Positions 28,584 through 58,528 of a stretch of DNA of 64,000 bases are shown piece after piece. The notes below the pieces were generated by a model. The model saw nothing but the letters and a program-made list of their open reading frames with translations. It made no database searches and was not told where the DNA came from. This DNA is from a virus. Its lineage: Duplodnaviria > Caudoviricetes. The stretch is from positions 1-64,000 of IMG/VR virus record IMGVR_UViG_3300043423_000073. The stretch is one strand, 5' to 3'. Numbering within the stretch: the first letter of the stretch is position 1; each line of letters starts with the position of its first letter. The translations under genes and the position numbers were made by a program.

Positions 28584-28886
28584 TTAACCTGCGCTTTTCA
28601 ATAAAGACGCCAAGTTTGCAATCTGTTTTCTATTTGCGCCTGATAAGCTGACTGTTTTGCCTAAAAGGCTGGAGAATAAATGCTCCAGCAGTGACGCCGC
28701 CATCCTAGGTTTGCTTAGCTGCACTGACTGTACTAGTTCTGGGCGCTCGCGCTGCGCAAGCCGGACAAACTTGGGCAGGTCTTTTGTCCAGGAGCCGCCA
28801 CCAGTAAACATGCCTCTGTAAATGCTAAGAACAACCGAGGGCTCGGCGGCTGTTACCTGAAGACGATTTGCTGCCTGGAGTTGCCT
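28584..28886 (-). pseudogene. leader-tagged ORF whose ATG is replaced by AGG
   Basis: AAGGAAACCAAA-AGG CAA CTC CAG GCA GCA AAT CGT CTT CAG GTA ACA GCC = (R)QLQAANRLQVTAA, in frame with ORF 28584-28811. Confidence 0.65.
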
Positions 28887-28916
28887 TTTGGTTTCCTTTG
28901 GGTTTGTGGCCTGAGT

Positions 28917-29402
28917 TTAGCGAACTACCCCGAAGCCGTTCTTCTCGTAGTTATCGATTGCTCGACTGACGTACGCTACGTACTTTGCCAGGTCAAACTT
29001 GCGGGGACTGAACTCATACAGCGGGGTGTGTGCGGTAGACAGCAGGAGCCCGATGTGGCTGTAATCTTCCCCGTATGAGCCGAGCGTAAACTCAATACCC
29101 ACAACCTCGTCGTCTACATCCCACGTCACACCGCCCTCGGCTATCTTACGCGCCTCATTGAAGATGAGTTTAGTCTTGCCTTTGGTAACCTTGGCTTTGT
29201 CCTTCATAGACGCTGTGAAGCCTTTGGAGATTTCTTTGAGCGCCTCCGCCATTTCCTGCTTTGCTGCGTTGTACTCTCCTTGATAAACCAGTTCGTCTGC
29301 ATTACTTATGCGCACACCTGCCTTGAGCAAGGCGTCGCGGAAGGCTTTTGCGTCGCCTTTAGCCGCTGTTACTTGAAGACGGGTTGCTGCTTGAAGTTTC
29401 AT
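28917..29402 (-). CDS. leader-tagged protein, 160-aa paralog family member 1
   Basis: MKLQAATRLQVTAAKGDAKAF...FDLAKY. Confidence 0.85.
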   Translation of the reverse strand: MKLQAATRLQVTAAKGDAKAFRDALLKAGVRISNADELVYQGEYNAAKQEMAEALKEISKGFTASMKDKAKVTKGKTKLIFNEARKIAEGGVTWDVDDEVVGIEFTLGSYGEDYSHIGLLLSTAHTPLYEFSPRKFDLAKYVAYVSRAIDNYEKNGFGVVR

Positions 29403-29437
29403 TTTGGTTTCCTTTGGGTTAGGGCCACGACTGCCTG

Positions 29438-29920
29438 TCAGGCAAGGCCTTTTGCCTCAAACTCATTGACAGCCTTGTTAACAAAGGCTTGGTACTTGGC
29501 TAAGTCAAACGCGCCAAGTTCAAACTTGTATTCCGTGTACAAAGATGAACCAAGATCGAGCCAAACGCGGCCCTTATCGTGGAGTTCACCAAAGTAGAAC
29601 TCGCAAGAAACGTGTTTCCTGTTGGGGCCTTCCGCGATCTGCCACTCAACACCTCCGTAAAGGTACCGCTCTTTATCGAGACTGTTTATTTCTATCTCGC
29701 TGTCTGAAGAGGCCTTATTCCGCATCGACCTTTTGAGGCCCTTGTCAACAACCGTAAGAACAGATTTCATCAAGGTTTTGGCCTGCTTGACCTTTTTGTC
29801 GACTACCAACTGCTGGGCTTGTTCGATCTGCTTTGATACAGCGAGCAAAGCCTCGCGGAAGGCTTTTGCATCACCCGTAGCCGCAGTTACTTGAAGACGG
29901 GTTGCTGCTTGGAGTTTCAT
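29438..29920 (-). CDS. leader-tagged protein, paralog family member 2
   Basis: MKLQAATRLQVTAATGDAKAF...FVNKAVNEFEAKGLA. Confidence 0.85.
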   Translation of the reverse strand: MKLQAATRLQVTAATGDAKAFREALLAVSKQIEQAQQLVVDKKVKQAKTLMKSVLTVVDKGLKRSMRNKASSDSEIEINSLDKERYLYGGVEWQIAEGPNRKHVSCEFYFGELHDKGRVWLDLGSSLYTEYKFELGAFDLAKYQAFVNKAVNEFEAKGLA

Positions 29921-29935
29921 TTTGATTTCCTTGGG

Positions 29936-30133
29936 TTAAATATGAGGGTGACGCAAGAAGCCCGAACCTGGAAACTTCTTGACATACCTCTTCTTTGCAC
30001 TTTCCTCAAGCTTGGTAAACCACTCTTGAGTTCGTGCGGCTTCACAAACTGTTGATGCGGTGGTGGCTTTGTGTTTGCCACCACAGGCCCCGCATACTGT
30101 TGAACTGAGGCGCGTTGCGGCGTTAAGCTTCAT
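29936..30133 (-). CDS. leader-tagged 65-aa protein
   Basis: Internal start MKLNAATRLSST; CGACG; WF..L.....RY...FPGS. Confidence 0.7.
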   Translation of the reverse strand: MKLNAATRLSSTVCGACGGKHKATTASTVCEAARTQEWFTKLEESAKKRYVKKFPGSGFLRHPHI

Positions 30134-30356
30134 TTTCCACCTCGTCAAAGGCCGCCATCCACTTCTTGTAGGCGGGCGTGCCCAGAAATGCCTTGATGGC
30201 CTTACGGTACGCCCACAGCTTGTCCCTCGCTTCCGCCCCGGAGAACTTTGCGAGGAACGCGTCATGAAAGTCCTCAGGAGGGTCCTGGGTGAAGTCCAGC
30301 TTGCTCAAGTTGACCTTGGCAGTTACTTGAAGACGAGTTGCTGCTTGGAGTTTCAT
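30123..30356 (-). CDS. leader-tagged 77-aa protein
   Basis: Start MKLQAATRLQVTAK after the RBS cassette. Confidence 0.8.
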   Translation of the reverse strand: MKLQAATRLQVTAKVNLSKLDFTQDPPEDFHDAFLAKFSGAEARDKLWAYRKAIKAFLGTPAYKKWMAAFDEVENEA

Positions 30357-30375
30357 TTGGTTTTCCTGCGGAAGG

Positions 30376-30723
30376 TTAGAACTTGTAGCTTTCTGTGGGC
30401 TGCGCGTCCTTGGAGCTAGCGTAGTAGTGTACCCACGCGCCTTTGGCAGCTTGAGCAAGCTTCTTTAGGTCGATAGCCGCAAGCCCTTTGCCAGAAAGTG
30501 TCCAACCTAAACCCGAAGTGTACACCGCCTTCAGCGCACCTTTAGGGGTAGAGAATACGAATTTGTCACGCGCAAGCCTAGAGGACGAACCCCCAGACTG
30601 TTTGTAATCCTCCTCCTGCACGCCTGGAAGCGACCTTAGGTAGTCCGCGAGCGGCCAGTTCTTTTCTAAGGAAGCCTCTGGCGCGGCAGTTAATTGGAGA
30701 CGTGCTGCTGCTTGAAGTTTCAT
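30376..30723 (-). CDS. leader-tagged 115-aa protein
   Basis: MKLQAAARLQLTAA. Confidence 0.8.
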   Translation of the reverse strand: MKLQAAARLQLTAAPEASLEKNWPLADYLRSLPGVQEEDYKQSGGSSSRLARDKFVFSTPKGALKAVYTSGLGWTLSGKGLAAIDLKKLAQAAKGAWVHYYASSKDAQPTESYKF

Positions 30724-30759
30724 TTTGGTTTTCCTTTGGGTTTCAACTGCAAGCTAGGC

Positions 30760-31008
30760 TCATCGGCCACCAAAGCCTGAGCCGTGCCGTGTGTTTTCGC
30801 CTCGTGTATTAGAACGGCGAGAGCTGCTTGGGCGTTTACCTGGGTTTGCAGCTTTCCACTGCTGCACCTTTTGCTTTTCTTTTGTTGAAAGCTGCTCCGG
30901 CTCTACCACAGTACCGTCGTCCCACTCCCACCGACCGCGTTTGTCGTTGAACTTGAGACCTGACGTCAGCTCTGTTGCGGTGAGACGGGTTGCTGCTTGA
31001 AGTTTCAT
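30760..31008 (-). CDS. leader-tagged basic 82-aa protein
   Basis: MKLQAATRLTAT; Arg/Ser/Gly-rich tail. Confidence 0.8.
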   Translation of the reverse strand: MKLQAATRLTATELTSGLKFNDKRGRWEWDDGTVVEPEQLSTKEKQKVQQWKAANPGKRPSSSRRSNTRGENTRHGSGFGGR

Positions 31009-31054
31009 TTTGGTTTTCCTTTTGGGTTAAATAGGTGGGCGAGTGAGCCTGGCT

Positions 31055-31789
31055 TTAGGCCAGTGTGCCTTGGTTGATCTGCTGAATGACCTGCTGCAGG
31101 TAGTCAGGCGCGTAGCTGTAGAGCCGCTTGTAATAGGCAATGGCGCTCTGCTTCTCGGCAGGAGTTAGCGAGGCGACCACCGCTGCCTGCACACTCTTTT
31201 TCACGTCCACTGGGTAGATGCTCACCACTTGTTCATATGCAACTTCCATGGCGTGGCCACGGGCAACGGAAAGCACGCGAACCTTGCTGTCGCTAGTTGC
31301 GAGTGCAAAGCCGTGATCGATGCTGCCATCATCGCCCACGTAGGCAACCAGCTCGTTGGCTGCGGCTTTGGCAATGGTGACGTTAGCAACGCGCGGCACG
31401 TCGTTGCGATGGTATGTGGCAGCTTGCACCAACTCAGACAGGTCCTCTTCGCCGCGGCGAACCAAGTAGGTACCCGCCGCACCACTGCGCACATCCCACA
31501 AAGTTTTGTCTTCCTCGGACATGAGGACGTTCTTGGCCATAACGCGGTAGCTGGCTTTCAGACTCTTAGGGTCAGGCATGACCACCTGCTTGTTGGCTTT
31601 CACAAAGCCTACGGCCACGCCTGCGCTAATCTTCTTGAACGAGTTGGCAACAGGGGCGGCCAAACCTTTTAGCTTGGCAGCAACGTGGTTGCGGAAGTCC
31701 TCGTGGTCAATGTCGCCGGTGAAGGACACGATGACTTTGGCCAAGCTGGGGGTAACCATTTTGTGGTCGGTAATGTTCAACGTTTTCAT
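31055..31789 (-). CDS. conserved virion/head protein
   Basis: Start MKTLNITD with RBS AAGGA; contains LKAS, VQAA and VVAS motifs. Confidence 0.65.
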   Translation of the reverse strand: MKTLNITDHKMVTPSLAKVIVSFTGDIDHEDFRNHVAAKLKGLAAPVANSFKKISAGVAVGFVKANKQVVMPDPKSLKASYRVMAKNVLMSEEDKTLWDVRSGAAGTYLVRRGEEDLSELVQAATYHRNDVPRVANVTIAKAAANELVAYVGDDGSIDHGFALATSDSKVRVLSVARGHAMEVAYEQVVSIYPVDVKKSVQAAVVASLTPAEKQSAIAYYKRLYSYAPDYLQQVIQQINQGTLA

Positions 31790-31913
31790 TTCATTTCCTT
31801 GGGTTGCGACACTTGATAGTGAGGAAGTTGCCCTATCCATTTAGGATTCGGGTTGGGTGTTACCGCAAAAAAGAGCAGGGGTGTATCTGCTAAGCCCACA
31901 CCAATGGGAAAAC

Positions 31914-32195
31914 TTACTCGGGGCTGAATTCTTTGATCTCAATCTTAAGAGCGTTGCCTACAACGTAGAACTCAGCGCTGAGATCGAACTGCGTACAAAC
32001 CCGGCCCAACATGACAAAGCCTTCATCCGTCACTGACATTCGGCCAGTCTTCGGTACCAAACCGACCACTGAGCCTTCGCCGTTTTCGTCAAATTTTGCC
32101 TTGACAACGGTGCAGAAGCTCCGGAGGATAGTGACTGCCTTTGCGGCCCATGCTGGGTTGGAGGCGACCAGTCGGCTTGCAGCAGAGATTTTCAT
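31914..32195 (-). CDS. leader-tagged 93-aa protein
   Basis: MKISAASRLVAS. Confidence 0.75.
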   Translation of the reverse strand: MKISAASRLVASNPAWAAKAVTILRSFCTVVKAKFDENGEGSVVGLVPKTGRMSVTDEGFVMLGRVCTQFDLSAEFYVVGNALKIEIKEFSPE

Positions 32196-32250
32196 TCTGG
32201 TTTCCTTGTTAGTTTGCAGTTGTTGGTTTGGGGTTTGGTTAATCAGACGG

Positions 32251-32766: not shown

Positions 32767-32769
32767 CGG

Positions 32770-33096
32770 TTAGTCCTCTAGGAGAAGGTTAAAGATTTTG
32801 CTTTCTGGGTCTTCGTCGTTTGTGAAGACGCGGAATGTCTCCTCATAGACGATGCCCAAAGGCGAGAGATGGTTAATGGTGACGTTGGTGCCCTTAACCT
32901 GAGACTCCTTTACCGTTGCTAGCGCGTCAAGAATCTGTTGCTGGGTAACCTTGTCCTCTGTGCGGAAGAAAAAGTTATTGCCTGTTTGTTTCAGAAAGCG
33001 TGCACCAAGAGGTCGAAGCAGCTTGGCCAGCGTTTGTTGGAGTATGAACAGGTTTCGGTCAGCGGCGGCCAGCCGTGTTGCTGCTTGAAGCTTCAT
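32770..33096 (-). CDS. leader-tagged 108-aa protein
   Basis: Internal start MKLQAATRLAAA. Confidence 0.75.
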   Translation of the reverse strand: MKLQAATRLAAADRNLFILQQTLAKLLRPLGARFLKQTGNNFFFRTEDKVTQQQILDALATVKESQVKGTNVTINHLSPLGIVYEETFRVFTNDEDPESKIFNLLLED

Positions 33097-33115: not shown

Positions 33116-33595
33116 TTAAGCAAAGCCGCGCTTCTCAAACTCATTGACAGCCTTGTTTACGAAGGCCGCGTACTTGGCAGGGTTAAAGTTACCAAGACCA
33201 AACTCGTAGTAATCAATCTCGCGCTTGGGGGAGAGGTTGAGCCAAACAACACCGACGAATCGCGACTCTTCGCCAAAGTTGAACTCGAAAGACGCCCGGT
33301 AGGGTGCCTCCTCTGGTCCTGCCTCAACCGACCACACACAGCCGCCCAGCTCTTGGTTGAGGTTTATGCTGCTGCGCTTCACCTTGGCTTTACCATCAAG
33401 CGCCGCCTTGAAGCCTTTGTCGACTTCCTGGAGAACCGCTTTCATAAGAGACTTGGACTCCTTGCCGTTGCCGAAGTGGGCACGATCGGAAGCTTCCCCA
33501 ATCTGCTTGCCCACTGAAAGCAAGGCCTCACGAAAGGCTTTTGCGTCGCCTTTAGCCGCTGTTACTTGAAGACGTGTTGCTGCTTGAAGTTTCAT
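33116..33595 (-). CDS. leader-tagged protein, paralog family member 3
   Basis: MKLQAATRLQVTAAKGDAKAF...FVNKAVNEFEKRGFA. Confidence 0.85.
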   Translation of the reverse strand: MKLQAATRLQVTAAKGDAKAFREALLSVGKQIGEASDRAHFGNGKESKSLMKAVLQEVDKGFKAALDGKAKVKRSSINLNQELGGCVWSVEAGPEEAPYRASFEFNFGEESRFVGVVWLNLSPKREIDYYEFGLGNFNPAKYAAFVNKAVNEFEKRGFA

Positions 33596-38400: not shown

Positions 38401-38414
38401 TTGAGTTCCTTTGT

Positions 38415-39600: not shown

Positions 39601-40656
39601 TTAGACGCGCTGGCCTTTGGCGACAGAACGGCTGTTGGCAACGGACACGGCCAAGCTTTCCTCGATCACGAAACCGCGACCTGGGACCAACTCGTGGCTA
39701 ATGTCGATCGGTGTCGACTTCAGGCCACCGCGGTCGGAGTACGCGCCGTGGTTCAGTGCGTCAGAGATGACGTAGAACTCACCTGCGCCCAACACCTTGT
39801 GCTCTGGGTGACGGAAGGCATCAGAAGTGATGGTCATGCCGTACATGGTGGCCAGCTCGCCGGTCAACAACAACTCGTGGCGGGCAACTGGATCAATCGC
39901 CTGATAGAAGTCGCTGTTGCCGATGATGTCTTGCCACATATCGGAAGCCATCAACAAGTGAGCACCTTTCAGGCCCCACGCGGTGACCTTGCCCACCACA
40001 GTCATCAAACTGTAAGGGGTCAATTGGCCAGACACAACGGTCAGAGGGTTGTCCACACCAACCAAGGCGTTCACCTGGTTGTACCACACGCGGTCTTCTG
40101 CAACCATAGTTGCTTCAACACCTTCAATGAACTTTTCCTGCAACACGTCGCCGCTGGATTGGTTCAGTTCGTTGGTGGGCACGAATGGGCGAGCCACAAC
40201 CTGGAACTCAGGAGGAGTGAAGTACTTGTCACGGATGAGCTGCGACTGGATCTTGGTTGGGGAAGTGCTCCACACGGCAGTCACGTTCTTGGTACGCAAC
40301 TGGAAGCGAGGGACACTGCCTTGGGCCACGTCGATCTTGGCCAGGTACTTGCGCATGAAACCTTGACGGTTTGCGGTAATGTACAAGGCGTCGGAAATCT
40401 TCTCACCCAAGACACGGTGTGCGTCCTTGTCGTTGAAGGCGGCAGCCACCAGCTCGCGGCCAGTAGTTGCGTCAACGTTCAACATCACGCCTTGCGAGGA
40501 GGCCTGCAAGAAACGCTGTTGCTGAGTGAGCAGGTCTTTCTTGCTCGATGCGTTCAGTTCGCCATTACGGCCAACCAAAGACGAGCCGTCGACGGCTTTC
40601 AGGTCATGGGCGAGAACTGGTGCTTTGCCAGCACGAAGCATGATTGCTTTGGTCAT
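39601..40656 (-). CDS. major capsid protein
   Basis: 351 aa; protease-scaffold-X-MCP gene order; HK97-like pattern (..EDR.WY.., TGEL..MYG..I..D); highly biased codon usage; followed by a hairpin. Confidence 0.75.
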   Translation of the reverse strand: MTKAIMLRAGKAPVLAHDLKAVDGSSLVGRNGELNASSKKDLLTQQQRFLQASSQGVMLNVDATTGRELVAAAFNDKDAHRVLGEKISDALYITANRQGFMRKYLAKIDVAQGSVPRFQLRTKNVTAVWSTSPTKIQSQLIRDKYFTPPEFQVVARPFVPTNELNQSSGDVLQEKFIEGVEATMVAEDRVWYNQVNALVGVDNPLTVVSGQLTPYSLMTVVGKVTAWGLKGAHLLMASDMWQDIIGNSDFYQAIDPVARHELLLTGELATMYGMTITSDAFRHPEHKVLGAGEFYVISDALNHGAYSDRGGLKSTPIDISHELVPGRGFVIEESLAVSVANSRSVAKGQRV

Positions 40657-41355: not shown

Positions 41356-42681
41356 TTAGATTAACGATTGGCTACCTGCCAGAATTGCTCGTGCAACGCT
41401 CGCAGGGGAACCATCTTGGGTTTTCGACTGCAGCAAGACTGCGCGTCGGGCGGGATTTGTGAGGGCAGCCGTGACCGAGGTCGTTGCCGACAAAGGCACA
41501 AGCTCATCTTCGTTTTCGTCAAACTCAGCGTCGACGTCAGTCAACCCATCGTCCAACTCAACTTCTTCTGAAACCATGTCGAGTGCCGACACGTAACCGT
41601 CACGGGCTTCTTCCGACATAGCGGCAAGGCGCTGAGCCAGAGTAACCATAGAGCGGCTGTAGTCAACACCGTGCTTTGCAAAGATCGATGTGACCAAACG
41701 ATCTGCATTGCGGAAGCCTGCGTGAGACAACTCGTTAACCAAGGCTGCTTTCAGGGGGTTCTGCACACCCTTGAAATAGTTGGTGTTGATACCAACTGCG
41801 GCGATAGCCAAAGATTGTTCAAGCGCTGCCTGCTGCTGCTTAGACGCGGTAAGGTGTTTCGCAGTCGCGGCCTGCACTTTTGATGCGACCAACTTTGCGG
41901 TAACCTTAGCGGCTTTCAGCTTCACGCGGGACAATTGCAAACCTGCTTGCAGGAGGCCTTTGCGGAGACCGGACTGCTCAACGTTTGCAACAATAGCGTC
42001 GTGGAACACTTGTTGTTGGTAAATGTCGGAAGCATTTGCTTTGCGTGCTGCGGCAGGGCCCATCGAGGCAATGATGCGGTTCGAACGAATCACGTGCAGA
42101 GCGTTGGCGCTGCAAGCAAAGTTCAACTCCTCACCGTCGACGTCGTCAGGCACTTCGTCCACGTCAACCAACGCGAGAGTTTCTTCCAGCGAGGTGTCTT
42201 CAAAGTCGGCCGCGTCGTCGTTGGCCTCAAGCTCAGCGTCGTCGTCGCTGTCTTCCAGTTCAGGCAGTTCCTCGGCGGTCAGTGCTTCAAACTCATCGCC
42301 TGTATCCAACACGTCGGTGTCAGTTGCAATGTCGTCCGAGAACTCGTCAAACTCGTCTTCGTCTGCGCCCGCCAAGGTAGGCACGTCGATGACAGGCATA
42401 CCGTCTTCGGTGTCCAGGTAGTTTTCACCTGGGTTCAAGTCGCCGTGTGTACGCAATGGGCCGTCCATTTCTTCGTCCACTACTAGCGAGTTTGCTGCAA
42501 CACGCTTGGGGCCTTTGTATTTCAAATCGTTGGTGGAGTGCGTGTAGCCGCTAGTTCGATCTTGTGGATCGATCAGCAGGTCCGCGCTCTGCAGATTCAA
42601 AAGACGTTGGTCCGAGCGCAGTGCGCGCTGGTCGGGAGTGTCACCCGAGTGCAGCGCGGAGCCTGCTAAAATCTTCGGCAT
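41356..42681 (-). CDS. prohead scaffold/core protein
   Basis: Very acidic central tract, helical, between protease and capsid genes. Confidence 0.6.
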   Translation of the reverse strand: MPKILAGSALHSGDTPDQRALRSDQRLLNLQSADLLIDPQDRTSGYTHSTNDLKYKGPKRVAANSLVVDEEMDGPLRTHGDLNPGENYLDTEDGMPVIDVPTLAGADEDEFDEFSDDIATDTDVLDTGDEFEALTAEELPELEDSDDDAELEANDDAADFEDTSLEETLALVDVDEVPDDVDGEELNFACSANALHVIRSNRIIASMGPAAARKANASDIYQQQVFHDAIVANVEQSGLRKGLLQAGLQLSRVKLKAAKVTAKLVASKVQAATAKHLTASKQQQAALEQSLAIAAVGINTNYFKGVQNPLKAALVNELSHAGFRNADRLVTSIFAKHGVDYSRSMVTLAQRLAAMSEEARDGYVSALDMVSEEVELDDGLTDVDAEFDENEDELVPLSATTSVTAALTNPARRAVLLQSKTQDGSPASVARAILAGSQSLI

Positions 42682-42797: not shown

Positions 42798-43265
42798 TCA
42801 GGCAAGGCCTTTTGCCTCGAAAGTGTCGATTGCCTTGTTGACAAAGGACTTGTACTTTGCCTGGTTGAACTTGCTGGCGCGGAACTCGTACGTCGTATTG
42901 AACCTGCCGAAGACTAAGGTGACGAAGCCAAGAGCGTCACCGGGCGTAAATTCAAACTCAAACGCAGCGTAAGAACCAGTCGTGTACCAGGTCACTTCAC
43001 CTGCAGACTGCTCGTGCGCCCGGTTGAACCCAAGATACGACTCCTTTTCAAACTCGACCTTACCCGTCATAGCTGCCGCGAAGCCAGCCTCGATTTCTTT
43101 GAGCGCCGCCGCCATTTCCTGCTTTGCGGCTTTGTACTCTCCCTTATAAACTTGCGCATCGGCATTACTTATGCGCACACCTGCTTTGAGCAAAGCCTCG
43201 CGGAAGGCTTTTGCATCGCCTTTGGCTGCGTTCAACTGAAGACGGGTTGCTGCTTGGAGTTTCAT
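42798..43265 (-). CDS. leader-tagged protein, paralog family member 4
   Basis: MKLQAATRLQLNAAKGDAKAF...FEAKGLA. Confidence 0.85.
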   Translation of the reverse strand: MKLQAATRLQLNAAKGDAKAFREALLKAGVRISNADAQVYKGEYKAAKQEMAAALKEIEAGFAAAMTGKVEFEKESYLGFNRAHEQSAGEVTWYTTGSYAAFEFEFTPGDALGFVTLVFGRFNTTYEFRASKFNQAKYKSFVNKAIDTFEAKGLA

Positions 43266-43283: not shown

Positions 43284-44027
43284 TTAACTTTGGAGGATAA
43301 CATCGCTTAGACAGGTTGTCCAAGCGGGCGTTTCTACGATGCTGTACTCTATCGGAGACAGACCGTAGGCATTCAGGTAAGCAAGTCGTGTCTTTCCCTC
43401 GTACTCGACAAACTTCCAATTCACCGACTTGGTGCTATGGATATGGCTGCAGTTGAGATTAGGATTGTCCGTAGACTCGTGGCCGCAGACAGAGCATCGA
43501 AAGAAGTCGGCAAGGCAGCCCATAGAGCCTGTGTTGATTTTCCTGTCCATTACCTTTTGGGCAAGCTCAGGGTCTTTGGTCTTCGACACTCCGATCAGTC
43601 CGTAAACTGCCCAGTGATTGCCGTCACCAAAGCCCTGAATACGACGAAACGACGTATCGAAGATAACGCCTTTGGCTTTCAACGGGTCTTCGTTGTCGTG
43701 CTCCTCATGCACAGGGCAACCCGCCCAGGCTTTGAAAACCTGTCGGTTCATAGGCGGTGGGCCAAACTTGACCAGCTCCTCTGTGGGGAAGCCGATGCCG
43801 TTCCTGTTAGGCAGGTTAGACGGACAGATCATGTGGTTAGTCACCACGTAGTCTTCAATTTGTCCTGGCAGGTTGTATGCCTTGGACGCAAAAGGCAGCC
43901 ATGACAGATCAAGCTTACCTGCAACGGCAACTTCTTTCTCCAAGTCCATCGGCTTGTCAAGCGTTGCCGACGACACCATTGGCGCCGTGCGAAGGACTTT
44001 TCTTTGATAGGCGGCAGGTACTCTCAT
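43284..44027 (-). CDS. prohead (capsid maturation) protease
   Basis: PNRNG..F; PVHEEHDN; GSMGC...CSVCG...C.H; IEYSIVETPA motifs. Confidence 0.75.
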   Translation of the reverse strand: MRVPAAYQRKVLRTAPMVSSATLDKPMDLEKEVAVAGKLDLSWLPFASKAYNLPGQIEDYVVTNHMICPSNLPNRNGIGFPTEELVKFGPPPMNRQVFKAWAGCPVHEEHDNEDPLKAKGVIFDTSFRRIQGFGDGNHWAVYGLIGVSKTKDPELAQKVMDRKINTGSMGCLADFFRCSVCGHESTDNPNLNCSHIHSTKSVNWKFVEYEGKTRLAYLNAYGLSPIEYSIVETPAWTTCLSDVILQS

Positions 44028-49637: not shown

Positions 49638-50254
49638 ATTTGAAGAGGCCTCGTGTTTAATGGTCTGCGTGCTGATGCAACGGGCAACCAAAGTTGATTT
49701 AATATGTACCGCTCGTCTGTCAGTGAGTGCTGAGCAGCGGGAAGCATTGGGCAGTTAATCGTGTAGCCTATGACCCAACGATGCCGCTCGCAAATCATTG
49801 GGTTGTAGACAAAGAATGTCGTCGCAGGATCAATGACCAGGACCGTTCGGCGTTGCTGCCGAATACGCTTGAAGCGATACGGAAGTGGAATGGCCTTGAC
49901 CCAGTTCTCAAAGGTTGGGTCGGCAGTAACCTGCACAGACACAGTGAGGCGAAACCCGCCTGGATAGAACTCAACCTGCCTCACAGGTCGGCGCCGGTAG
50001 ACAACCGGGGCAAGAAAGTCTGTCAGGTTGATGAAGCGAACAACGCGGGCGCGACGTCTGGCAAGAAAGTTACGCACGTCGCTGTTACCGACGGTGCTGC
50101 GTGAGTACGGCTCGATGCCAGCCTCGTAGCAAAGCTCCTCGAAGCGCCTATGTATGCTGTCCTCCGCCTGATTGTCAGTTTCAAACGCCGCCATCCACAA
50201 CTCAATCGCTGCGGGGTTCACATGCTTTGGTGGACGAAGAGGATGCAGAATCAT
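49634..50254 (-). CDS. hypothetical protein
   Basis: Coupled at both ends. Confidence 0.6.
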   Translation of the reverse strand: MILHPLRPPKHVNPAAIELWMAAFETDNQAEDSIHRRFEELCYEAGIEPYSRSTVGNSDVRNFLARRRARVVRFINLTDFLAPVVYRRRPVRQVEFYPGGFRLTVSVQVTADPTFENWVKAIPLPYRFKRIRQQRRTVLVIDPATTFFVYNPMICERHRWVIGYTINCPMLPAAQHSLTDERYILNQLWLPVASARRPLNTRPLQI

Positions 50255-50463
50255 AGGGGATCGAGCAGCATGTTGCGACTTACGTCATCCATCAACAATG
50301 GTTGCTCTTCTGCTGGCTCGATAGAGCCGTCGTCAGTGGTGAGCAGCTGGATCTCAGGTGTCTCTTCGGTATGCTGGTCTGTGAGCAAGTTGACGTAGGT
50401 ATCAGGGGAGGCAGCAGGCTGTTCCCTTGAGGCGTAAAGACGTGATGCAGCGTTGAGTCTCAT
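50251..50463 (-). CDS. leader-tagged acidic 70-aa protein
   Basis: MRLNAASRLYAS; RBS GGAGG. Confidence 0.7.
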   Translation of the reverse strand: MRLNAASRLYASREQPAASPDTYVNLLTDQHTEETPEIQLLTTDDGSIEPAEEQPLLMDDVSRNMLLDPL

Positions 50464-53182: not shown

Positions 53183-54166
53183 TTAAATCCAGACTTCTGG
53201 CAGGCCCTTGTAGGTCAAAGTAATGGACTTCCCACCTTTTAGGTAAGACTCACCCGCGAAATTCTTGCCTACAAACTTTCCTTTGAACAGGCGGCCTTGA
53301 TAGGCGACAACCACAGGTACACCCGGTCTTGGCTTGCCTGGGTACTTTGTGAGTCCTACCTCTTCTGGCAAAACACGAGGGCCAAACTTGCGAGTTAGCT
53401 CGGACTCTTTTAACGCTGCGTCCTTTGCACTCTCGTACTCAGCTTCCTCGGTTGTGTCATATCGACTAGGGTTGAGGCCGCACTTGCGCATCCAGCCTTG
53501 CCACACAGGACCGTGACCGCCTTCGTCTCGATCTCGACTTTGGCTTATTTGGTGAGCGGCTGCATGGCACATCTCATGCACAAACGTCTCGGCAAAGAAG
53601 TCTAGGTCTGCGTTAAAAGTCTTGCCCCACATCCAAAGATGCCCTGCGGAAAAATTAGTGCCTCCTCGGTAAACACCCCGCGCTGTCTTGAGCTTAGGAG
53701 AGAAAGGAGTGAGCGTGGTTGTGATGCTAGGCTCGTCGAGGCGATTACCAAAATACTCTTTGTTCGCCCATTGGAAGAGTTTCTTCATGAAGGGCACACG
53801 CTTGGATTGAGTAGCCTGAGCAAAAGGATACGCCTTGGCTAACACCTCTGGTACTTTGTTGCCTATGCCTTGAACGTGGTGCTTACTTGTTTTTGTTTTT
53901 TCGACCTTGCTCTCGTCGACCAACCGCAGCATGTGGGTGGCTACGGCAACCCCTAACCTACCTACGCCCGGAATGTCAAACACCAAAACCTTTCCGTCTT
54001 GCGCCACAGAGGGCGCTTGCAGCCGTTGCTTAAGGCTACGAACGTCAACCGAGTCAAACGTGTAGGTGTATTTCTTGTCCTCAACCTTTTTCAACACTAA
54101 ACCAGTAAAGCCGTGATTGTGAAGCACCTCGGTTACCTCAGCGGGCTTAAGACTCGCAGTTATCAT
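53183..54166 (-). CDS. SprT-like zinc metalloprotease
   Basis: N..YF...L; HEMCH; GHGPVWQ. Confidence 0.85.
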   Translation of the reverse strand: MITASLKPAEVTEVLHNHGFTGLVLKKVEDKKYTYTFDSVDVRSLKQRLQAPSVAQDGKVLVFDIPGVGRLGVAVATHMLRLVDESKVEKTKTSKHHVQGIGNKVPEVLAKAYPFAQATQSKRVPFMKKLFQWANKEYFGNRLDEPSITTTLTPFSPKLKTARGVYRGGTNFSAGHLWMWGKTFNADLDFFAETFVHEMCHAAAHQISQSRDRDEGGHGPVWQGWMRKCGLNPSRYDTTEEAEYESAKDAALKESELTRKFGPRVLPEEVGLTKYPGKPRPGVPVVVAYQGRLFKGKFVGKNFAGESYLKGGKSITLTYKGLPEVWI

Positions 54167-54567
54167 TTCTTCCTCGCATAGTAGTTAAGCAGTGCTGCTT
54201 TCAGCTTAGGGTGCATAGGTGAAGGCATTTTGTGCGCCGCCCAGCGAAAATCGGTGTGCTCGTGATTAAGCACCGGAACAAACTCTTCATTCACGAAGCT
54301 GAAAAAGTTGTGGTAGACAAAGCCGTTCGAGCGGGCGACCGCGAAGGGTATGAGCTTGTAGATACCAGAGTAGCCGCCCTCCTCGAAGACCTCTCGCCTA
54401 AGGCCTTGCTCAATGGTCTCGCCGTACTCAACGCCGCCCCCTAGGCAGCACCAGGTGTTTGGCTCATCGCACCGAGAGCTACGCTTGACAAAGAGCACAC
54501 GCCCTGTCGAGCGAGCCACGAAAAGAACACCTGCACCTACACCTGTTGAAGTTTCTGCCTTAATCAT
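54163..54567 (-). CDS. Nudix hydrolase
   Basis: GGGVEYGETIEQGLRREVFEEGG Nudix box; LNHEH...W. Confidence 0.9.
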   Translation of the reverse strand: MIKAETSTGVGAGVLFVARSTGRVLFVKRSSRCDEPNTWCCLGGGVEYGETIEQGLRREVFEEGGYSGIYKLIPFAVARSNGFVYHNFFSFVNEEFVPVLNHEHTDFRWAAHKMPSPMHPKLKAALLNYYARKK

Positions 54568-54743
54568 TGTTTTTGCCATCAAGTTGCTTGACTATTTTCT
54601 GTGCCCAACGGAAACCAGCGTCACCGCCCCAACCCCAACCCCAACCCAGCCAAGGCCTGCCTGGCTGCGTCCTGCGCGCCTTTAGGCGGTGTGAGATCTA
54701 TGTCTTTGGAGGAGGCAAGACGAAAGGCAGCGAGCAGTTTCAT
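54560..54743 (-). pseudogene. leader-tagged, internally deleted/frameshifted phage head-associated protein (PPxxA..AARxAL ... WxxWGGDAG.RWA family)
   Basis: Frame 1 MKLLAAFRLASSKDIDLTPPKGAQDAARQAL...*; frame 2 ...WLGWGWGWGGDAGFRWAQKIVKQLD*. Confidence 0.6.
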
Positions 54744-54761
54744 TTTCTACTTTCGAGGTGG

Positions 54762-55409
54762 TTACGGAGAGGCGCGAGTCAGAATAACTCTCAGGTTACG
54801 ACCTTCGTCTGACTCTTTCCAATGTTTGCTAATCTCGTAGGTTAGATGAGGAGCAGGCTCCCAGCGGTCGCCGCCGTTAACAATGTTGAGAAGGTCAACA
54901 GTGTAAGTGTCGTCTACGCAAACCGCAAGGTACTTTGCCTGTGGCGTCAGTAGCTTTTTCCAAAAGTAGGCGCCTGCCGATGATTGTTGGCTGTCGGTGA
55001 TCGCGGCATTGCCGTTTGATGCAAGGTAGTCCCAAAAGATTTTGGTTGCAAGACCTTTAAGCTTTGCTCTGTCTGCCGTTGCACCAAACGCCACTGAGGC
55101 CTGCAACCACAAGTCAAAGTTCTGCAAAAGCCTTCTAACTTTAGGCGTTGCGGTAAAACTCACAGAGTAGACCTGATTAACGTACTGCGGCTGTTCCTTT
55201 GAGTCTAGCGCCACAAAGAACCAGGCGTTTCTGTCATGCGGATCGACATAGGTGTGAACGCTATGCTGGCCGTAATCAAAAAGATGTTGCCGATGCTTAA
55301 GGCGCGCAAAGTCGTCAAACCAAGTGCTCTCGTAAACTTCGGGTATAACCTGAGGCATACCTTCTAACGACCAACGCGCACCTAAACGTTCTGCTACGGC
55401 AATTTTCAT
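54762..55409 (-). CDS. leader-tagged GNAT-like protein
   Basis: MKIAVAERLGA; KGLATKIF...TDSQQS.AG..FW. Confidence 0.6.
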   Translation of the reverse strand: MKIAVAERLGARWSLEGMPQVIPEVYESTWFDDFARLKHRQHLFDYGQHSVHTYVDPHDRNAWFFVALDSKEQPQYVNQVYSVSFTATPKVRRLLQNFDLWLQASVAFGATADRAKLKGLATKIFWDYLASNGNAAITDSQQSSAGAYFWKKLLTPQAKYLAVCVDDTYTVDLLNIVNGGDRWEPAPHLTYEISKHWKESDEGRNLRVILTRASP

Positions 55410-55888: not shown

Positions 55889-55904
55889 GGTGACCTTTCT
55901 GGCA

Positions 55905-56465
55905 TCAAACGTAGTCCTTGTGCATGAGTATTCGCGCACCTTTAAGATTTTTGCTAACGACGTCTTTGTTTTTAGCCAGCCTATCCCAGAGCAATTTAGC
56001 TGCTGGCGCGTGACCTTTTGTTATCAACACTATACCGCTTTGCAAGGCTTTCATGTAAATGAAGGTGGCTAAGCCTTTACCTGCTAACTCTTTTGAAAAA
56101 TCTATATGCGGTACGGCCAGGTTTTTGTAGTTGGTCGCAATCTTCTGCCCTAATTGCTTACCGGCTTCAAAGTCAAAGTACACGTCACCGTAAACGGCAA
56201 AACGCTCGCCAACTTTTTTACACACAAATACTAAAGTTCGGTCGTCGGAAGGGTCCATATAGATTAACCAGCCGTCAACGGTAGCGATATGTTTTAAACC
56301 TTTGCTCCTTAACTCGGCAGCTGTATAGTCTAAAACAGGTGCAAAGGGCTTCTTGGGGCCAACGGTGTAACTATGAGTTTTGCGCGGGTTAGCGTTAATC
56401 GAAGTTGCGTTGCTGCTACGGGTGACTGAAGAAGCACAAAGTCTGCTAAAGGCGTTTAGCTGCAT
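55905..56465 (-). CDS. leader-tagged GNAT-like protein
   Basis: Start MQLNAFSRLCAS; GKGLATFIY...GH...A..LWDRL. Confidence 0.65.
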   Translation of the reverse strand: MQLNAFSRLCASSVTRSSNATSINANPRKTHSYTVGPKKPFAPVLDYTAAELRSKGLKHIATVDGWLIYMDPSDDRTLVFVCKKVGERFAVYGDVYFDFEAGKQLGQKIATNYKNLAVPHIDFSKELAGKGLATFIYMKALQSGIVLITKGHAPAAKLLWDRLAKNKDVVSKNLKGARILMHKDYV

Positions 56466-56472
56466 GGTGACC

Positions 56473-57624
56473 TTAGCCTCCGTTGATCTCATTCGCAACT
56501 CGGCGCAGCTGCTGCTGGGTTAGGCCGTATTTGTCCTCAAGCCATTCCAGGTCATGCGGTGTCACGCCCTCACCTTGATCAAGCTGGGTAATGGTGAACA
56601 CAATCTTTTTGCCGTCGTAGGGCTTCATCTTGAGGCGAGCCTTTCTACGATTCTTCAAAAGCTTCCGCATCTCTTGGTAAAGCTGCATCTGAATGTCGTC
56701 CACTCGCGTAAGATCGCGTTTCATGACAAAGGTCATGCTTTCTTTGTCTGCCACAATCTTATCAATGTACGGAGCAGCAGAGAAGGCGTCAGGTGTCATG
56801 CCTTTGGTGTTTCGCAGATGCATGTCCATAGGGAGGTTGCCAATCTGCGAACTAAACCCTTCGAGACTAAGCTGGTTGGTGATTGTGCGGACAGCGTCCT
56901 TTGTGTCCTTGACCAGCTCACCTGACTGCAAGCGGGTGGGTTCAACAAAGTCGTGCTCGATAAATACCTCGACTATGTTAGCCTTTGCCTCAATCGTCCA
57001 CCGCAAGGCAACGTAGAGGTGAGGCATGACCTGACCTTCATCGGACACAGCGTTTACCAAGACGATGTAGCCGGCAAAGACTAAATCGCCACCTGCGTTA
57101 ATTGCGACATAGATAAAGTTCTCGATGCTGTCGCACTCAATGTGTTGGTTGTCAGAAAGTTCCTGGGCGAGCTTGGCAAGAAAGCGCTTAAACTCTTTCG
57201 GAGCGTGCCCTTCCGCAATCTTGTTCAGGCTCTTGAAGAGAGCACGAAGTTTGGTCTCAATGTCAACCTTAAGGCGACGAACCGCACCGAGAGTGGCTTC
57301 CACTTTGGGTTCGGCCACACGGAAGGTGCGTTGGATTTGTGCCTCGGCCTCTTCCAGCTCGCGGTACTGATGCGACAACTCTTCGACCAGTCTGTAGTCC
57401 TTTGTCAGCTGTGTCTTGTTAGGAACCTTAGTGACAGGGAAATTAACATCAATTGTCTCTCCCCGGCGAGTGCGTTTAGGCAACTCGCCGTCACCGGAAA
57501 TGTCGAGCACCACCGAGGCGTCCAGGCGCTTGATGCTAATGTCTGCCAGCTGATTTAGCTCCTGCAGTTTTGCGACTTTGTCGTCAATGAAGCGCTTGAC
57601 GTCCTTGAGCGAAGTGAATTTCAT
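56473..57624 (-). CDS. conserved hypothetical (probable head) protein
   Basis: 383 aa; RLDAS motif near the N-terminus. Confidence 0.6.
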   Translation of the reverse strand: MKFTSLKDVKRFIDDKVAKLQELNQLADISIKRLDASVVLDISGDGELPKRTRRGETIDVNFPVTKVPNKTQLTKDYRLVEELSHQYRELEEAEAQIQRTFRVAEPKVEATLGAVRRLKVDIETKLRALFKSLNKIAEGHAPKEFKRFLAKLAQELSDNQHIECDSIENFIYVAINAGGDLVFAGYIVLVNAVSDEGQVMPHLYVALRWTIEAKANIVEVFIEHDFVEPTRLQSGELVKDTKDAVRTITNQLSLEGFSSQIGNLPMDMHLRNTKGMTPDAFSAAPYIDKIVADKESMTFVMKRDLTRVDDIQMQLYQEMRKLLKNRRKARLKMKPYDGKKIVFTITQLDQGEGVTPHDLEWLEDKYGLTQQQLRRVANEINGG

Positions 57625-57625
57625 A

Positions 57626-58528
57626 TTAGTAGTCCTTGATGGTTACGTTGCGTCTACGGAGAGTGAGATTATCTCCGCGGAGTTCCATTATGTACCCGGC
57701 CTTGCTTAGCTTGTCCCAGACGTTTCGTGCCATCTGGGTGTGGCCGTCTGTTGCAAGTATGAAGCCCTTGTCGAGCATGAGGCGGTAGATGAAGGCGGTG
57801 ATGCCGTTGCCACGAATTGCCGGCGACAGGATTGCATGCGGTTCAAGTTGCCTTGGGGCTACAACCGTGAAGGATATCTGGCCCAAGACTTCACGCAGGT
57901 CAAAGGAGAACACTGTGTAGTTGTGCTCCCTGCCTAGCCATTGATGGTAACCAACTTTTACCTTAACCCCAAGATCAGCGTCTGCGCCATGTACCCACTC
58001 CTCTATGAGAGGCAAGACCTTGTTGGTCGAAGGTAGCTTAGGGGCGCTACCTGGCGAGAGTATGCGGTAGCTGAGCAGCATACTCTTCGGCAGCTTAAGC
58101 TCATCAATAGCGTCTTCCGCCTTGTATCCGCTGTGCCTACACCAAGCGCGGAGACGCTCAAGAGCGGCCTTTGCTGCGTCCACCACCTCCTTAACAGACT
58201 CATCTGCCTCGTCAAGGCCTTCCTTGGCCACATAGGTAAGCTGTTCGGCAGCCTCCTTAGCGTCCTTGACAAGGTTAAGTGGCGCGAAAGGCAAAACCAA
58301 GGAGTTCCCGCTCTTGTCGGTAAGTGGCACCAGCTCATATTGCCGCACCTCGGCATCCGATAAGGCTTTGGGGTAGGTGAGGACACCGTGCCGAACGCCC
58401 ACTGCCTTGGTGTCTTTCTCGTGGCTAATGTAGCCTTTAGGAACAGCGCCAGGGGCAGGAGGCCTAGCGCGTAACCCGTATTGAAAATCCATTGCGGCAC
58501 TAAGTCTTGCCACGGCGTTAAGTCTCAT
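57626..58528 (-). CDS. leader-tagged DarA C-terminal-like domain + GNAT-like domain protein
   Basis: MRLNAVARLSAA; YGLRARP..PGAVPKG...RHGVLTY...L...E...YELVP; RGNGITAFIY...GHT..A..VWDKL. Confidence 0.65.
   Translation of the reverse strand: MRLNAVARLSAAMDFQYGLRARPPAPGAVPKGYISHEKDTKAVGVRHGVLTYPKALSDAEVRQYELVPLTDKSGNSLVLPFAPLNLVKDAKEAAEQLTYVAKEGLDEADESVKEVVDAAKAALERLRAWCRHSGYKAEDAIDELKLPKSMLLSYRILSPGSAPKLPSTNKVLPLIEEWVHGADADLGVKVKVGYHQWLGREHNYTVFSFDLREVLGQISFTVVAPRQLEPHAILSPAIRGNGITAFIYRLMLDKGFILATDGHTQMARNVWDKLSKAGYIMELRGDNLTLRRRNVTIKDY

What the first reader, a model, noticed from the sequence alone, without database searches (positions are those of the whole stretch)
28584..58528. Portable N-terminal leader (MKLQAATRL-type) on 16 late genes: candidate capsid-targeting system for injected cargo
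Seen in sequence: 16 minus-strand ORFs begin with near matches to M-[KRQ]-[LI]-x-A-[AFV]-x-R-L-x-[AS], some extended by -QVTAA. Start positions and leaders: 28886 (AGG; QLQAANRL), 29402, 29920, 30356, 33595 (MKLQAATRLQVTA), 30133 (MKLNAATRLSS), 30723 (MKLQAAARLQLTA), 31008 (MKLQAATRLTA), 32195 (MKISAASRLVAS), 33096 (MKLQAATRLAAA), 43265 (MKLQAATRLQLNAA), 50463 (MRLNAASRLYAS), 54743 (MKLLAAFRLASS), 55409 (MKIAVAERLGA), 56465 (MQLNAFSRLCAS), 58528 (MRLNAVARLSAA). Beyond residue ~13 most are unrelated. All lie in the head/tail late module; none is in the replication or tail-fibre modules. In the distal copies the DNA has diverged while the peptide is kept, so selection acts on the peptide. Established knowledge: T4 internal proteins IPI-III share a ~10-aa N-terminal capsid targeting sequence that the prohead protease removes, and they are injected with the DNA (IPI* blocks the GmrSD nuclease). 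Inference: this is an analogous but different tag used much more widely to load a diverse cargo set into the head for delivery at the start of infection. It could also be useful for protein delivery.
Basis: partly seen in the sequence, partly recalled or inferred. Interest (0 to 1): 0.95.

Follow-up and report, generated by a model that had tools for sequence, protein, structure and literature searches.

The report
Shared head-address leader on phage proteins
An uncultured giant phage related to Ralstonia phage RSL1 puts the same 12-residue N-terminal peptide on 15-16 mostly unrelated late proteins; its relatives do the same, once even on the head-maturation protease. The peptide is therefore most likely an address tag that loads varied cargo, including likely anti-defence enzymes, into the phage head, though no experiment shows this yet.

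Summary
In the 154.7-kb record, M-[KRQ]-[LI]-x-A-x-x-R-L-x-A-[ST] occurs 16 times, always at the claimed minus-strand ORF starts (28.8-58.5 kb) and nowhere else. Arg8 and Leu9 are kept through synonymous codon changes. Caveats:
- One copy (28886) has AGG instead of ATG.
- One copy (54743) is a 40-aa remnant cut off from a NUDIX gene.
- Four tagged proteins are paralogues, and three share a GNAT-like C-terminal domain.

The tag is conserved across RSL1/BcepSauron-like jumbo phages (about 42 more cases in IMG/VR relatives). Tagged proteins there include:
- NUDIX hydrolases (RSL1 ORF109, BcepSauron gp099);
- SprT-like peptidases;
- a DarA_C-domain protein (this window);
- the prohead protease itself, in one relative.

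The extension 'QVTAA-E/D' resembles motifs near the N-termini of the major capsid protein, scaffold and protease, so it may be a maturation cleavage site.

Best reading (about 0.65): a lineage-specific analogue of the T4 capsid-targeting sequence. Packaging, cleavage and injection are inferred, not shown.

It is a new variant of a known kind. This scan has noted comparable leader tags in other jumbo-phage lineages on other DNA. RSL1 and BcepSauron are cultured, so the idea is directly testable.

The parts
28584..28886 (-). Decayed tagged gene: leader RQLQAANRLQVTAAE with AGG in place of ATG; the first ATG (28811) gives 75 aa without the leader
   Evidence: PSSM 22.4
28917..29402 (-). Tagged gene, 161 aa (MKLQAATRLQVTAAKGD...); member of the 4-paralogue family
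29438..29920 (-). Tagged gene, 160 aa; member of the 4-paralogue family
29936..30133 (-). Tagged gene, 65 aa (MKLNAATRLSS...); also carries the second short module WF..L...Y[LV]KK[FH]P
30123..30356 (-). Tagged gene, 77 aa; orphan body
30376..30723 (-). Tagged gene, 115 aa (MKLQAAARLQLTAAPE...); orphan body
30760..31008 (-). Tagged gene, 82 aa (MKLQAATRLTATE...); basic orphan body
31914..32195 (-). Tagged gene, 93 aa (MKISAASRLVAS...); orphan body
32770..33096 (-). Tagged gene, 108 aa (MKLQAATRLAAAD...), directly upstream of the tail tube gene (32251-32766)
33116..33595 (-). Tagged gene, 159 aa; member of the 4-paralogue family; preceded by the candidate late-promoter motif CTAATTTTAT at 33632
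42798..43265 (-). Tagged gene, 155 aa, between the prohead protease and scaffold-like genes. This slot also holds a tagged gene in RSL1 (ORF133) and in IMG/VR relatives, with non-homologous bodies
50251..50463 (-). Tagged gene, 70 aa, acidic (MRLNAASRLYASRE...)
54621..54743 (-). Tagged 40-aa ORF (MKLLAAFRLASSKD...). Probably the detached leader of the NUDIX gene, because the RSL1 and BcepSauron NUDIX proteins carry the tag in one ORF
54163..54582 (-). NUDIX hydrolase gene, in another frame and behind a stop relative to the 40-aa tagged ORF
   Evidence: (PF00293, E 9e-16)
54762..55409 (-). Tagged gene, 215 aa (MKIAVAERLGAR...); C-terminal domain shared with 56465 and 58528
55905..56465 (-). Tagged gene, 186 aa (MQLNAFSRLCAS...); GNAT-like C-terminal domain
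57626..58528 (-). Tagged gene, 300 aa: leader, then DarA_C-like domain (residues about 11-150), then GNAT-like C-terminal domain
   Evidence: PF18789, E 5e-10; phrog_1926
43284..44027 (-). Prohead (head maturation) protease; untagged here, tagged in the relative L020:6141-6944
   Evidence: (phrog_18299, E 6e-66)
41356..42681 (-). Scaffold-like protein, assigned by position, an acidic disordered middle and a conserved C-terminal half. Orthologues carry K-Q-V-T-A-A-R-E-type N-termini
39601..40656 (-). Major capsid protein. Its conserved N-terminal P-V-[LV]-A-[TSH]-[ED] motif is the candidate maturation cleavage site
   Evidence: (phrog_2522, E 3e-88)

Best explanation
The 12-residue leader M-K-[LI]-x-A-[AK]-x-R-L-x-A-[TSA] is most likely a lineage-specific prohead (capsid) targeting sequence of RSL1/BcepSauron-like jumbo phages.

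Proposed mechanism:
1. Late in infection, proteins that start with the leader are recruited into the assembling prohead core. They enter together with the protease, the scaffold and the tagged small protein encoded between those two genes.
2. The prohead protease then probably removes the leader at an acidic residue a few positions downstream. The candidate site is [VL]-[TL]-A-[AST]-x(0-2)-[ED], the same kind of motif that lies near the N-termini of the capsid protein, scaffold and protease.
3. The mature cargo stays in the DNA-filled head and is probably released into the host with the DNA. The cargo comprises small orphan proteins, a DarA_C-domain protein, GNAT-like proteins and, in relatives, NUDIX and SprT-like enzymes.

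What is shown: the tag exists, it is restricted to ORF starts, selection acts on the peptide, it is conserved across the clade on non-homologous bodies, and the domain content of some cargo is known.

What is inferred: binding to a prohead component, cleavage, retention in the virion and ejection.
For: 1. Sixteen sites, all at ORF starts on the late strand and far above chance. Synonymous codon variation at invariant Arg8 and Leu9 shows selection on the peptide.
2. About 42 further N-terminal copies occur in 13 IMG/VR loci whose capsid protein is 60-79% identical, plus RSL1 and BcepSauron. Over 58 sequences the consensus is K 44/58, L/I 57/58, A 56/58, then R-L, then A 40/58 and T/S/A 42/58. 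The bodies differ: about 11 unrelated families in this genome. The syntenic tagged gene between protease and scaffold has no detectable body homology between lineages.
3. In relative L020 the prohead protease itself begins MKIQAASRLKQVQ. It is 53% identical to the window protease over 210 aa, E 7e-77. At least seven other ORFs of that 188-kb record carry the same tag. From established knowledge of tailed phages, a prohead protease acts inside the prohead.
4. Tagged protein 57626-58528 has Pfam DarA_C above its gathering score (E 5e-10) and matches phrog_1926, 'released from the phage upon host infection'. Its homologues sit inside giant polyvalent proteins alongside ART-PolyVal and KfrB domains.
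5. RSL1 ORF109 and BcepSauron gp099, both annotated NUDIX/MutT, carry the tag. A SprT-like protein (L028:1193-2530) and a KMPT-N metallopeptidase protein (L030) carry it too. Three window proteins have a GNAT-like domain. These are domain types described in head-packaged, injected polyvalent proteins (PMC5512222; PMC7824862).
6. The tagged genes lie in the head/tail late gene block, downstream of the candidate late-promoter motif CTAATTTTAT that also precedes the scaffold-capsid operon.
7. The extension QVTAA(E) recurs at the N-termini of a scaffold (KQVTAARE) and a protease (KQVTAAE). It resembles the conserved P-V-[LV]-A-[TS]-E of the capsid protein.
8. Precedents: the T4 CTS (PMC3012670) and the N-terminal 30-residue packaging signal of P1 DarB (PMC9024508).
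Against: - No virion proteomics, N-terminal sequencing or packaging experiment exists for any tagged protein. I could not obtain the RSL1 virion protein list.
- The acidic residue after the leader is only modestly enriched: 24% at position +5 against 13% in the protein bodies. Three window leaders have no D/E within 20 residues.
- Orthologues gain and lose the tag. SprT-like, the protease and the ORF116-like protein are tagged in relatives but not here, and NUDIX is tagged in RSL1 but detached here. So the tag is not obligatory for those proteins.
- Part of the tagged cluster flanks the tail tube gene rather than head genes.
- Most cargo bodies have no recognisable function.
Confidence: 0.65

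Rival explanations
1. The leader is only a propeptide or recognition element for the prohead protease. It would be a processing signal, perhaps keeping enzymes inactive until maturation. Some other part of each protein would direct it into the head.
For: The leader extension resembles motifs at the N-termini of the capsid protein, scaffold and protease. A leader on the protease of L020 would fit an autoprocessed propeptide. P1 DarA and the P1 capsid protein are both trimmed at the N-terminus by Pro (PMC12810830).
Against: The most conserved positions (K2, L3, A5, R8, L9) lie upstream of any plausible cut site, and the acidic residue is poorly conserved. Eleven or more unrelated small bodies are unlikely each to carry a separate packaging determinant. 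Substrates of a prohead protease must in any case already be inside the prohead.
Confidence: 0.13
2. The leader is a docking peptide for another virion structure, such as the neck, tail lumen, baseplate or capsid exterior. The tagged proteins would then be interchangeable accessory parts of the particle rather than internal cargo.
For: Ten of the 16 tagged genes flank the tail tube gene. BcepSauron gp077 lies between the sheath and tube genes.
Against: The tag sits on a prohead protease, on NUDIX, SprT-like and GNAT-like enzymes and on a DarA_C protein. A tagged gene is fixed between the protease and scaffold genes. None of the tagged proteins matched a tail, fibre or baseplate family.
Confidence: 0.08
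3. The leader has no virion role. It might be a shared translation-initiation region copied together with its ribosome-binding site, or a tag for localisation, degradation or modification in the infected cell.
For: In nine proximal copies about 20 nt upstream, including the ribosome-binding site (AACCCAAAGGAAAACCAAA), are copied along with the first codons. The same stretch was noted earlier as a DNA cassette (e1-5753457).
Against: Distal copies and relatives keep the peptide while both codons and upstream DNA differ. The exact DNA pattern is absent from all other IMG/VR contigs, while the peptide is common in relatives. The tag is confined to the strand and region of virion genes in this record.
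Confidence: 0.08
4. The shared N-terminus is a neutral relic of recent gene duplication and has no function of its own.
For: Four tagged genes are true paralogues, and the proximal copies are nearly identical in DNA over the leader.
Against: Most bodies are unrelated. The motif is held across phages whose capsid proteins are only 60-79% identical, and it sits on different protein families.
Confidence: 0.02

Closest known systems
T4 capsid targeting sequence (CTS, MKTYQEFIAE) of internal proteins IPI-III, removed by prohead protease gp21
   Same: Both are short N-terminal peptides shared by otherwise diverse small late proteins. In T4 this CTS is the only conserved part of a fast-evolving set of anti-defence internal proteins and puts them into the scaffolding core (PMC3012670). 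Here too there is a cluster of small variable genes with a common leader, a likely protease site after it, and body replacement at a fixed locus.
   Different: - There is no sequence similarity to the T4 CTS.
- There are 15-16 tagged genes per genome rather than a handful.
- The tag also sits on enzymes and, in one relative, on the protease.
- The phage lineage differs: RSL1-like, with a small 351-aa capsid protein.
- Targeting, cleavage and ejection are untested here.
Phage P1 Dar system: the DarB N-terminal 30-residue packaging signal, and DarA/Hdf internal head proteins trimmed by protease Pro
   Same: An N-terminal signal is sufficient to carry a reporter into the P1 capsid (PMC9024508). 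DarA is an internal, N-terminally processed protein that is ejected (PMC12810830). One tagged protein here contains the Pfam DarA_C domain. A large SNF2 helicase gene (44892-49691) sits in the head module, loosely reminiscent of DarB.
   Different: The P1 signal is not described as a motif shared by many proteins, and P1 loading depends on an ordered DarA/Hdf pathway. DarA-N and Hdf were not found here. The DarA_C region of P1 DarA was not resolved in the P1 structure, so its role is unknown.
Polyvalent proteins of phages and conjugative elements (Iyer et al. 2017)
   Same: The domain repertoire overlaps: DarA_C, zincin/SprT-like peptidase, GNAT, NUDIX and a neighbouring 2H/Acb1-like phosphoesterase. 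These are predicted to be packaged and injected for early conflict with the host (PMC5512222).
   Different: In polyvalent proteins the domains are fused into one giant polypeptide. Here they are separate genes, each with its own address peptide.
phiKZ/SPN3US head and ejection proteins processed at S/A/G-x-E by the prohead protease
   Same: These are also jumbo-phage heads holding many internal proteins that lose N-terminal propeptides. The candidate motif here, A-[AST]-E/D, resembles that cleavage rule (PMC5694885, PMC7411985, PMC10052503: titles and abstracts; the S/A/G-x-E rule itself is from my own knowledge).
   Different: To my knowledge no common leader peptide has been described in those phages, and the lineages are unrelated.
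Encapsulin cargo-loading peptides
   Same: A short conserved peptide addresses diverse cargo to the interior of an HK97-fold shell (from my own knowledge; not tested here).
   Different: Those peptides are usually C-terminal, are not cleaved, and are not part of a virus.

Membership tests
T4-type capsid targeting sequence (functional class) | Short N-terminal peptide shared by several otherwise unrelated late proteins of one phage | tested here: met
   16 sites and about 11 unrelated body families
T4-type capsid targeting sequence (functional class) | The peptide ends at a prohead-protease site and is removed during maturation | tested here: inconclusive
   There is motif resemblance to the N-termini of capsid protein, scaffold and protease. 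Acidic residues are only weakly enriched after the leader. No protein-level data exist.
T4-type capsid targeting sequence (functional class) | The peptide is sufficient to carry a foreign protein into the capsid, and the cargo is present in virions and ejected | not testable with these tools
   This needs virion mass spectrometry and reporter fusions in RSL1 or BcepSauron
T4 CTS (sequence family) | Sequence similarity to MKTYQEFIAE with an L/I-x-E cut site | tested here: not met
   The consensus M-K-[LI]-x-A-A-x-R-L-x-A-[ST] shares only M-K with it
Pfam DarA_C (PF18789) | Profile match above the gathering score | tested here: met
   Protein 57626-58528, residues 15-70: 40.2 bits against a cut-off of 27, E 5e-10. 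Its homologues in polyvalent proteins also score as DarA_C. This holds for this one tagged protein only.
Polyvalent proteins | Several effector domains fused in one large polypeptide | tested here: not met
   The tagged proteins are 40-300 aa with at most two domains
P1 Dar system | DarA-N/Hdf domain proteins that nucleate loading of the other Dar proteins | tested here: not met
   No DarA-N or Hdf hit among the 30 window proteins scanned against Pfam. Genes outside 28-61 kb were not scanned.

The most novel reading that the evidence does not exclude
RSL1/BcepSauron-like jumbo phages may run a general, modular effector-delivery system. Any protein given the 12-residue address would be loaded into the prohead, trimmed and injected with the DNA. 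Genomes would then hold fast-turning libraries of tagged cargo: orphan inhibitors plus NUDIX, SprT-like, GNAT-like and DarA_C proteins, exchanged by recombination at the leader cassette. This would be a phage counterpart of signal-addressed secretion-system effectors, and usable as a protein-delivery tag in Ralstonia and Burkholderia.
Probability: 0.45. Interest if true: 0.78.

Novelty: new variant of a known kind. Interest (0 to 1): 0.62.

Why it matters
How giant phages choose which proteins go into the head and are delivered with the DNA is largely unknown outside T4 and P1. This work offers four things:
- a simple sequence rule that marks candidate cargo across a whole clade;
- a ready list of candidate early-acting anti-defence proteins, most of them orphans;
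- a natural 'swap' (the tag on the prohead protease) that ties the tag to the prohead;
- two cultured relatives, RSL1 and BcepSauron, that carry the tag, so virion mass spectrometry or one reporter fusion would settle the question.

If confirmed, the tag could be used to load proteins into phages of plant-pathogenic Ralstonia and of Burkholderia. Gene callers can also miss the leader: the public collection starts gene 58528 at Met13. That may be one reason the tag has not been described.

Tried and rejected
- **Co-folding (collected).** The leader (first 40 aa, 41-row alignment) was folded with the capsid protein and scaffold residues 170-441. Verdict: no answer (score 0.00, controls not run). 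This is not evidence either way.
- **Exact DNA pattern for MKLQAATRL in IMG/VR.** No other contig holds it. The exact leader is specific to this genome, and relatives were reached through proteins instead.
- **Homologues of the 155-aa tagged protein.** Only its three paralogues in the same record were found.
- **Pfam and PHROGs on the small tagged proteins.** Nothing significant.
- **PDB profile search with the three proteins that share a C-terminal domain.** Only low-complexity hits (CagY) appeared.
- **AlphaFold2 model of the 300-aa tagged protein.** Residues 11-150 are confident (pLDDT in 10-residue blocks 84-96). The leader is uncertain (pLDDT 63, a short helix) and the C-terminal domain is poor.
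- **Foldseek of that model against the PDB.** No match at E <= 0.001.
- **PDB sequence search with the protease.** Nothing, so its fold family and catalytic type were not established.
- **Literature.** The RSL1 genome/proteome paper could not be read. The PaBG, FLC6 and Matilda papers hold no data on tagged proteins.
- **Considered and rejected.** Sec, Tat or lipoprotein signal (no hydrophobic core, no twin arginine). A Prp/L27-type leader as in staphylococcal phage 80alpha (different motif and host group; from my own knowledge).

Full report
**Observation.**
- The regex [KRQ][LIV].[AV][AFVS].RL, applied to the six-frame translation of the whole 154,699-bp record (the window is its first 64 kb), hits 18 times. 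Sixteen hits are the claimed sites, and 15 of these follow an ATG directly at an ORF start.
- A 12-column PSSM scores the 16 sites at 21.7-31.0. The next best of about 200,000 positions scores 17.3 (a + strand hit opposite a minus-strand gene), and the rest score 12.6 or less.
- Residue shuffles gave 0-2 hits at or above 15, with a maximum of 19.1.
- Arg8 uses CGT, CGC, CGA, CGG and AGA. Leu9 uses CTT, CTC, CTG and TTA. The upstream DNA of the distal copies is unrelated, so the peptide is what is conserved.
  - Copy 28886 has AGG and no start codon.
  - Copy 54743 is a 40-aa ORF separated from the NUDIX gene behind it by a frameshift and a stop.
  - Genes 29402, 29920, 33595 and 43265 are paralogues.
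  - Genes 55409, 56465 and 58528 share a C-terminal domain.
  - About 11 unrelated body families remain.

**What the genome is.** The record is an IMG/VR contig estimated to be 65% complete.
- Its capsid region matches Ralstonia phage RSL1, Burkholderia phages BcepSauron, BcepSaruman and BCSR5, and Achromobacter phage Motura at about 70% DNA identity. Pseudomonas phage PaBG matches more weakly.
- The gene order on the minus strand follows RSL1:

| Coordinates | Gene |
|---|---|
| 59707-61329 | topoisomerase IB |
| 57626-58528 | tagged DarA_C protein |
| 55406-55939 | Acb1-like 2H phosphoesterase |
| 54163-54582 | NUDIX hydrolase |
| 53183-54166 | SprT-like protein |
| 51698-53173 | head-tail connector |
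| 50849-51685 | Dam methyltransferase |
| 44892-49691 | 1599-aa SNF2 helicase |
| 43284-44027 | prohead protease |
| 42798-43265 | tagged 155-aa gene |
| 41356-42681 | scaffold-like protein |
| 40669-41346 | virion structural protein |
| 39601-40656 | major capsid protein |
| 36218-38128 | tail sheath |
| 32251-32766 | tail tube |

- The tail tube gene is flanked by the tagged small-gene cluster at 28.6-33.6 kb.
- The motif CTAATTTTAT lies on the minus strand before the scaffold operon (42767), before tagged gene 33595 (33632), and at 39086 and 50812. This fits a common late promoter, but expression timing was not measured.

**Conservation across the clade.** The exact DNA pattern of MKLQAATRL is absent from other IMG/VR contigs, but the peptide is common in relatives.
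- RSL1 has a looser form, A-[AV]-x-R-L-x-[AG]-[ST], at the N-termini of ORF109, 111, 120, 123, 124, 127 and 133.
- BcepSauron has it on gp075, gp077, gp091, gp093 and gp099.
- Scanning the 21 IMG/VR loci fetched around the capsid and connector genes with the window PSSM found about 42 more leaders. All are at ORF starts on the strand of the capsid gene.
- One 56-kb contig (L019 plus L028) alone has about 14.
- Over 58 sequences the consensus is M-K-[LI]-x-A-[AK]-x-R-L-x-A-[TSA]. Hydrophobic residues alternate (L3, A5, L9, A11), which would suit an amphipathic strand. The AlphaFold model draws a short helix of low confidence instead, so the conformation is open.
- Phages whose capsid protein is only 33-47% identical (L024-L026) gave no hit.
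- In relatives, tagged genes also lie far from the head genes: 107-159 kb of a 188-kb record, and 151.8 kb of BcepSauron.

**What the tag is attached to.**
- *Prohead protease.* In L020 the prohead protease starts MKIQAASRLKQVQ. It is 53% identical to the window protease, E 7e-77. Other orthologues, including the window's, have a different N-terminus. This natural swap onto an enzyme that works inside the prohead is the strongest single pointer to the head interior.
- *Fixed slot.* A tagged small gene always occupies the position between the protease and scaffold genes: window 43265, RSL1 ORF133, L018, L019 and L020. Their bodies are not detectably homologous. This mirrors the variable T4 internal-protein loci.
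- *DarA_C protein.* Window protein 57626-58528 carries Pfam DarA_C and matches phrog_1926, 'released from the phage upon host infection'. A search of 1.84 billion representatives found 91 relatives:
  - a 152-aa protein built as leader plus DarA_C-like domain;
  - a 176-aa protein built as leader plus the C-terminal domain;
  - giant polyvalent proteins in which the domain sits next to ART-PolyVal or KfrB.
- *GNAT-like domain.* The C-terminal domain shared by 55409, 56465 and 58528 aligns to the region of a relative that Pfam calls GNAT, including the R-G-x-G motif. This is inference by transitive similarity.
- *Enzymes in relatives.* The NUDIX proteins of RSL1 and BcepSauron are tagged. So are a SprT-like protein (L028) and a KMPT-N metallopeptidase protein (L030), and ORF116-like proteins in two relatives.
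- *Unknown cargo.* Most of the small cargo has no recognisable family.

**Likely mechanism.** I read the leader as a prohead-addressing peptide analogous to the T4 CTS.
- The extension QVTAA(E) of several window leaders recurs as KQVTAARE at a scaffold N-terminus and as KQVTAAE at a protease N-terminus.
- All capsid-protein orthologues carry P-V-[LV]-A-[TS]-E about 16-20 residues in. This suggests a common maturation site with a small residue at P2/P3 and Glu or Asp at P1.
- The support is weak. Acidic residues reach 24% at position +5 against 13% in the bodies, and three window leaders have none nearby.
- Recruitment, cleavage, retention and ejection are all inferred.

**Rivals.**
- A pure processing propeptide (0.13) is hard to separate from targeting without a protease-dead mutant.
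- A docking tag for tail or neck (0.08) is suggested by the cluster around the tube gene. It fits poorly with tagged enzymes and a tagged protease.
- A translation-initiation cassette or other non-virion role (0.08) is contradicted by codon and upstream divergence with the peptide retained.
- A neutral duplication relic (0.02) is contradicted by the clade-wide spread on unrelated bodies.

**Comparison and novelty.**
- The closest known systems are the T4 CTS (PMC3012670) and the P1 DarB packaging signal with processed DarA (PMC9024508, PMC12810830).
- The cargo repertoire resembles the domains of polyvalent proteins (PMC5512222), but here they are split into separately addressed genes.
- The sequence is unrelated to the T4 CTS.
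- I found no description of this leader in the papers searched.
- Earlier notes of this scan report comparable leader tags in other jumbo-phage lineages on other DNA. The phenomenon looks general, and this is a new lineage-specific variant, not a new category.

**Limits.**
- The record is incomplete.
- Start codons are inferred from Shine-Dalgarno-like sequences.
- The PSSM is trained on this genome, so it under-detects the RSL1-type variant.
- No protein-level evidence exists.

Noticed in passing
window 54583-54760 (minus strand): The 40-aa tagged ORF ends in a G-rich repeat (GGGTTGGGGTTGGGGTTGGGG). The NUDIX ORF follows in another frame, behind an in-frame stop. In RSL1 and BcepSauron, leader and NUDIX form one ORF. 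This is either real decay of the tag or an assembly error in a slippery tract.
   Followed up: partly
window 55406-55939 (minus strand): An Acb1-like 2H phosphoesterase (PF23474, E 1e-12), an anti-CBASS-type enzyme, lies inside the head gene block without the leader. Its neighbours are NUDIX, SprT-like, Dam methyltransferase and topoisomerase IB genes, so counter-defence-like genes are concentrated among head genes.
   Followed up: no
window 44892-49691 (minus strand): A 1599-aa SNF2-family helicase (RSL1 ORF129 homologue) is conserved next to the prohead protease. It could be a packaged DarB-like protein. In RSL1 its N-terminus reads ...ADATRLRPTT, which is faintly leader-like.
   Followed up: no
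window 29936-30133; L009, L011, L012, L015, L019, L021: A second short portable module, W-[FWY]-x-x-[LM]-...-Y-[LIV]-x-[KE]-[HYF]-P-x-[ST]-x-[FY], occurs right after the leader or at the C-terminus of several tagged proteins. It occurs twice in BcepSauron gp075. No Pfam match.
   Followed up: partly
L018 about 6476-8000 (IMGVR_UViG_3300018414_000006): The prohead protease orthologue is interrupted after ...AGCPVH by a long insert that starts CFTGDTKI..., which looks like an intein.
   Followed up: no
window minus strand 15277, 15675, 33632, 39086, 42767, 50812; + strand 27079: CTAATTTTAT recurs upstream of late operons (scaffold, a tagged gene, the gene at 38415-39065, the gene at 50477-50776). 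It is a candidate late promoter element.
   Followed up: partly
window 58492-58528: The public protein collection starts this gene at Met13, so the leader is skipped, although the upstream ATG has a GGAGG ribosome-binding site. Automatic gene calling can hide the tag.
   Followed up: partly
window 28860-43285: In nine proximal copies the ribosome-binding site and spacer (AACCCAAAGGAAAACCAAA) are copied together with the leader codons. This gives a ~50-bp repeat that could mediate cassette exchange. The scan noted it separately as e1-5753457.
   Followed up: partly
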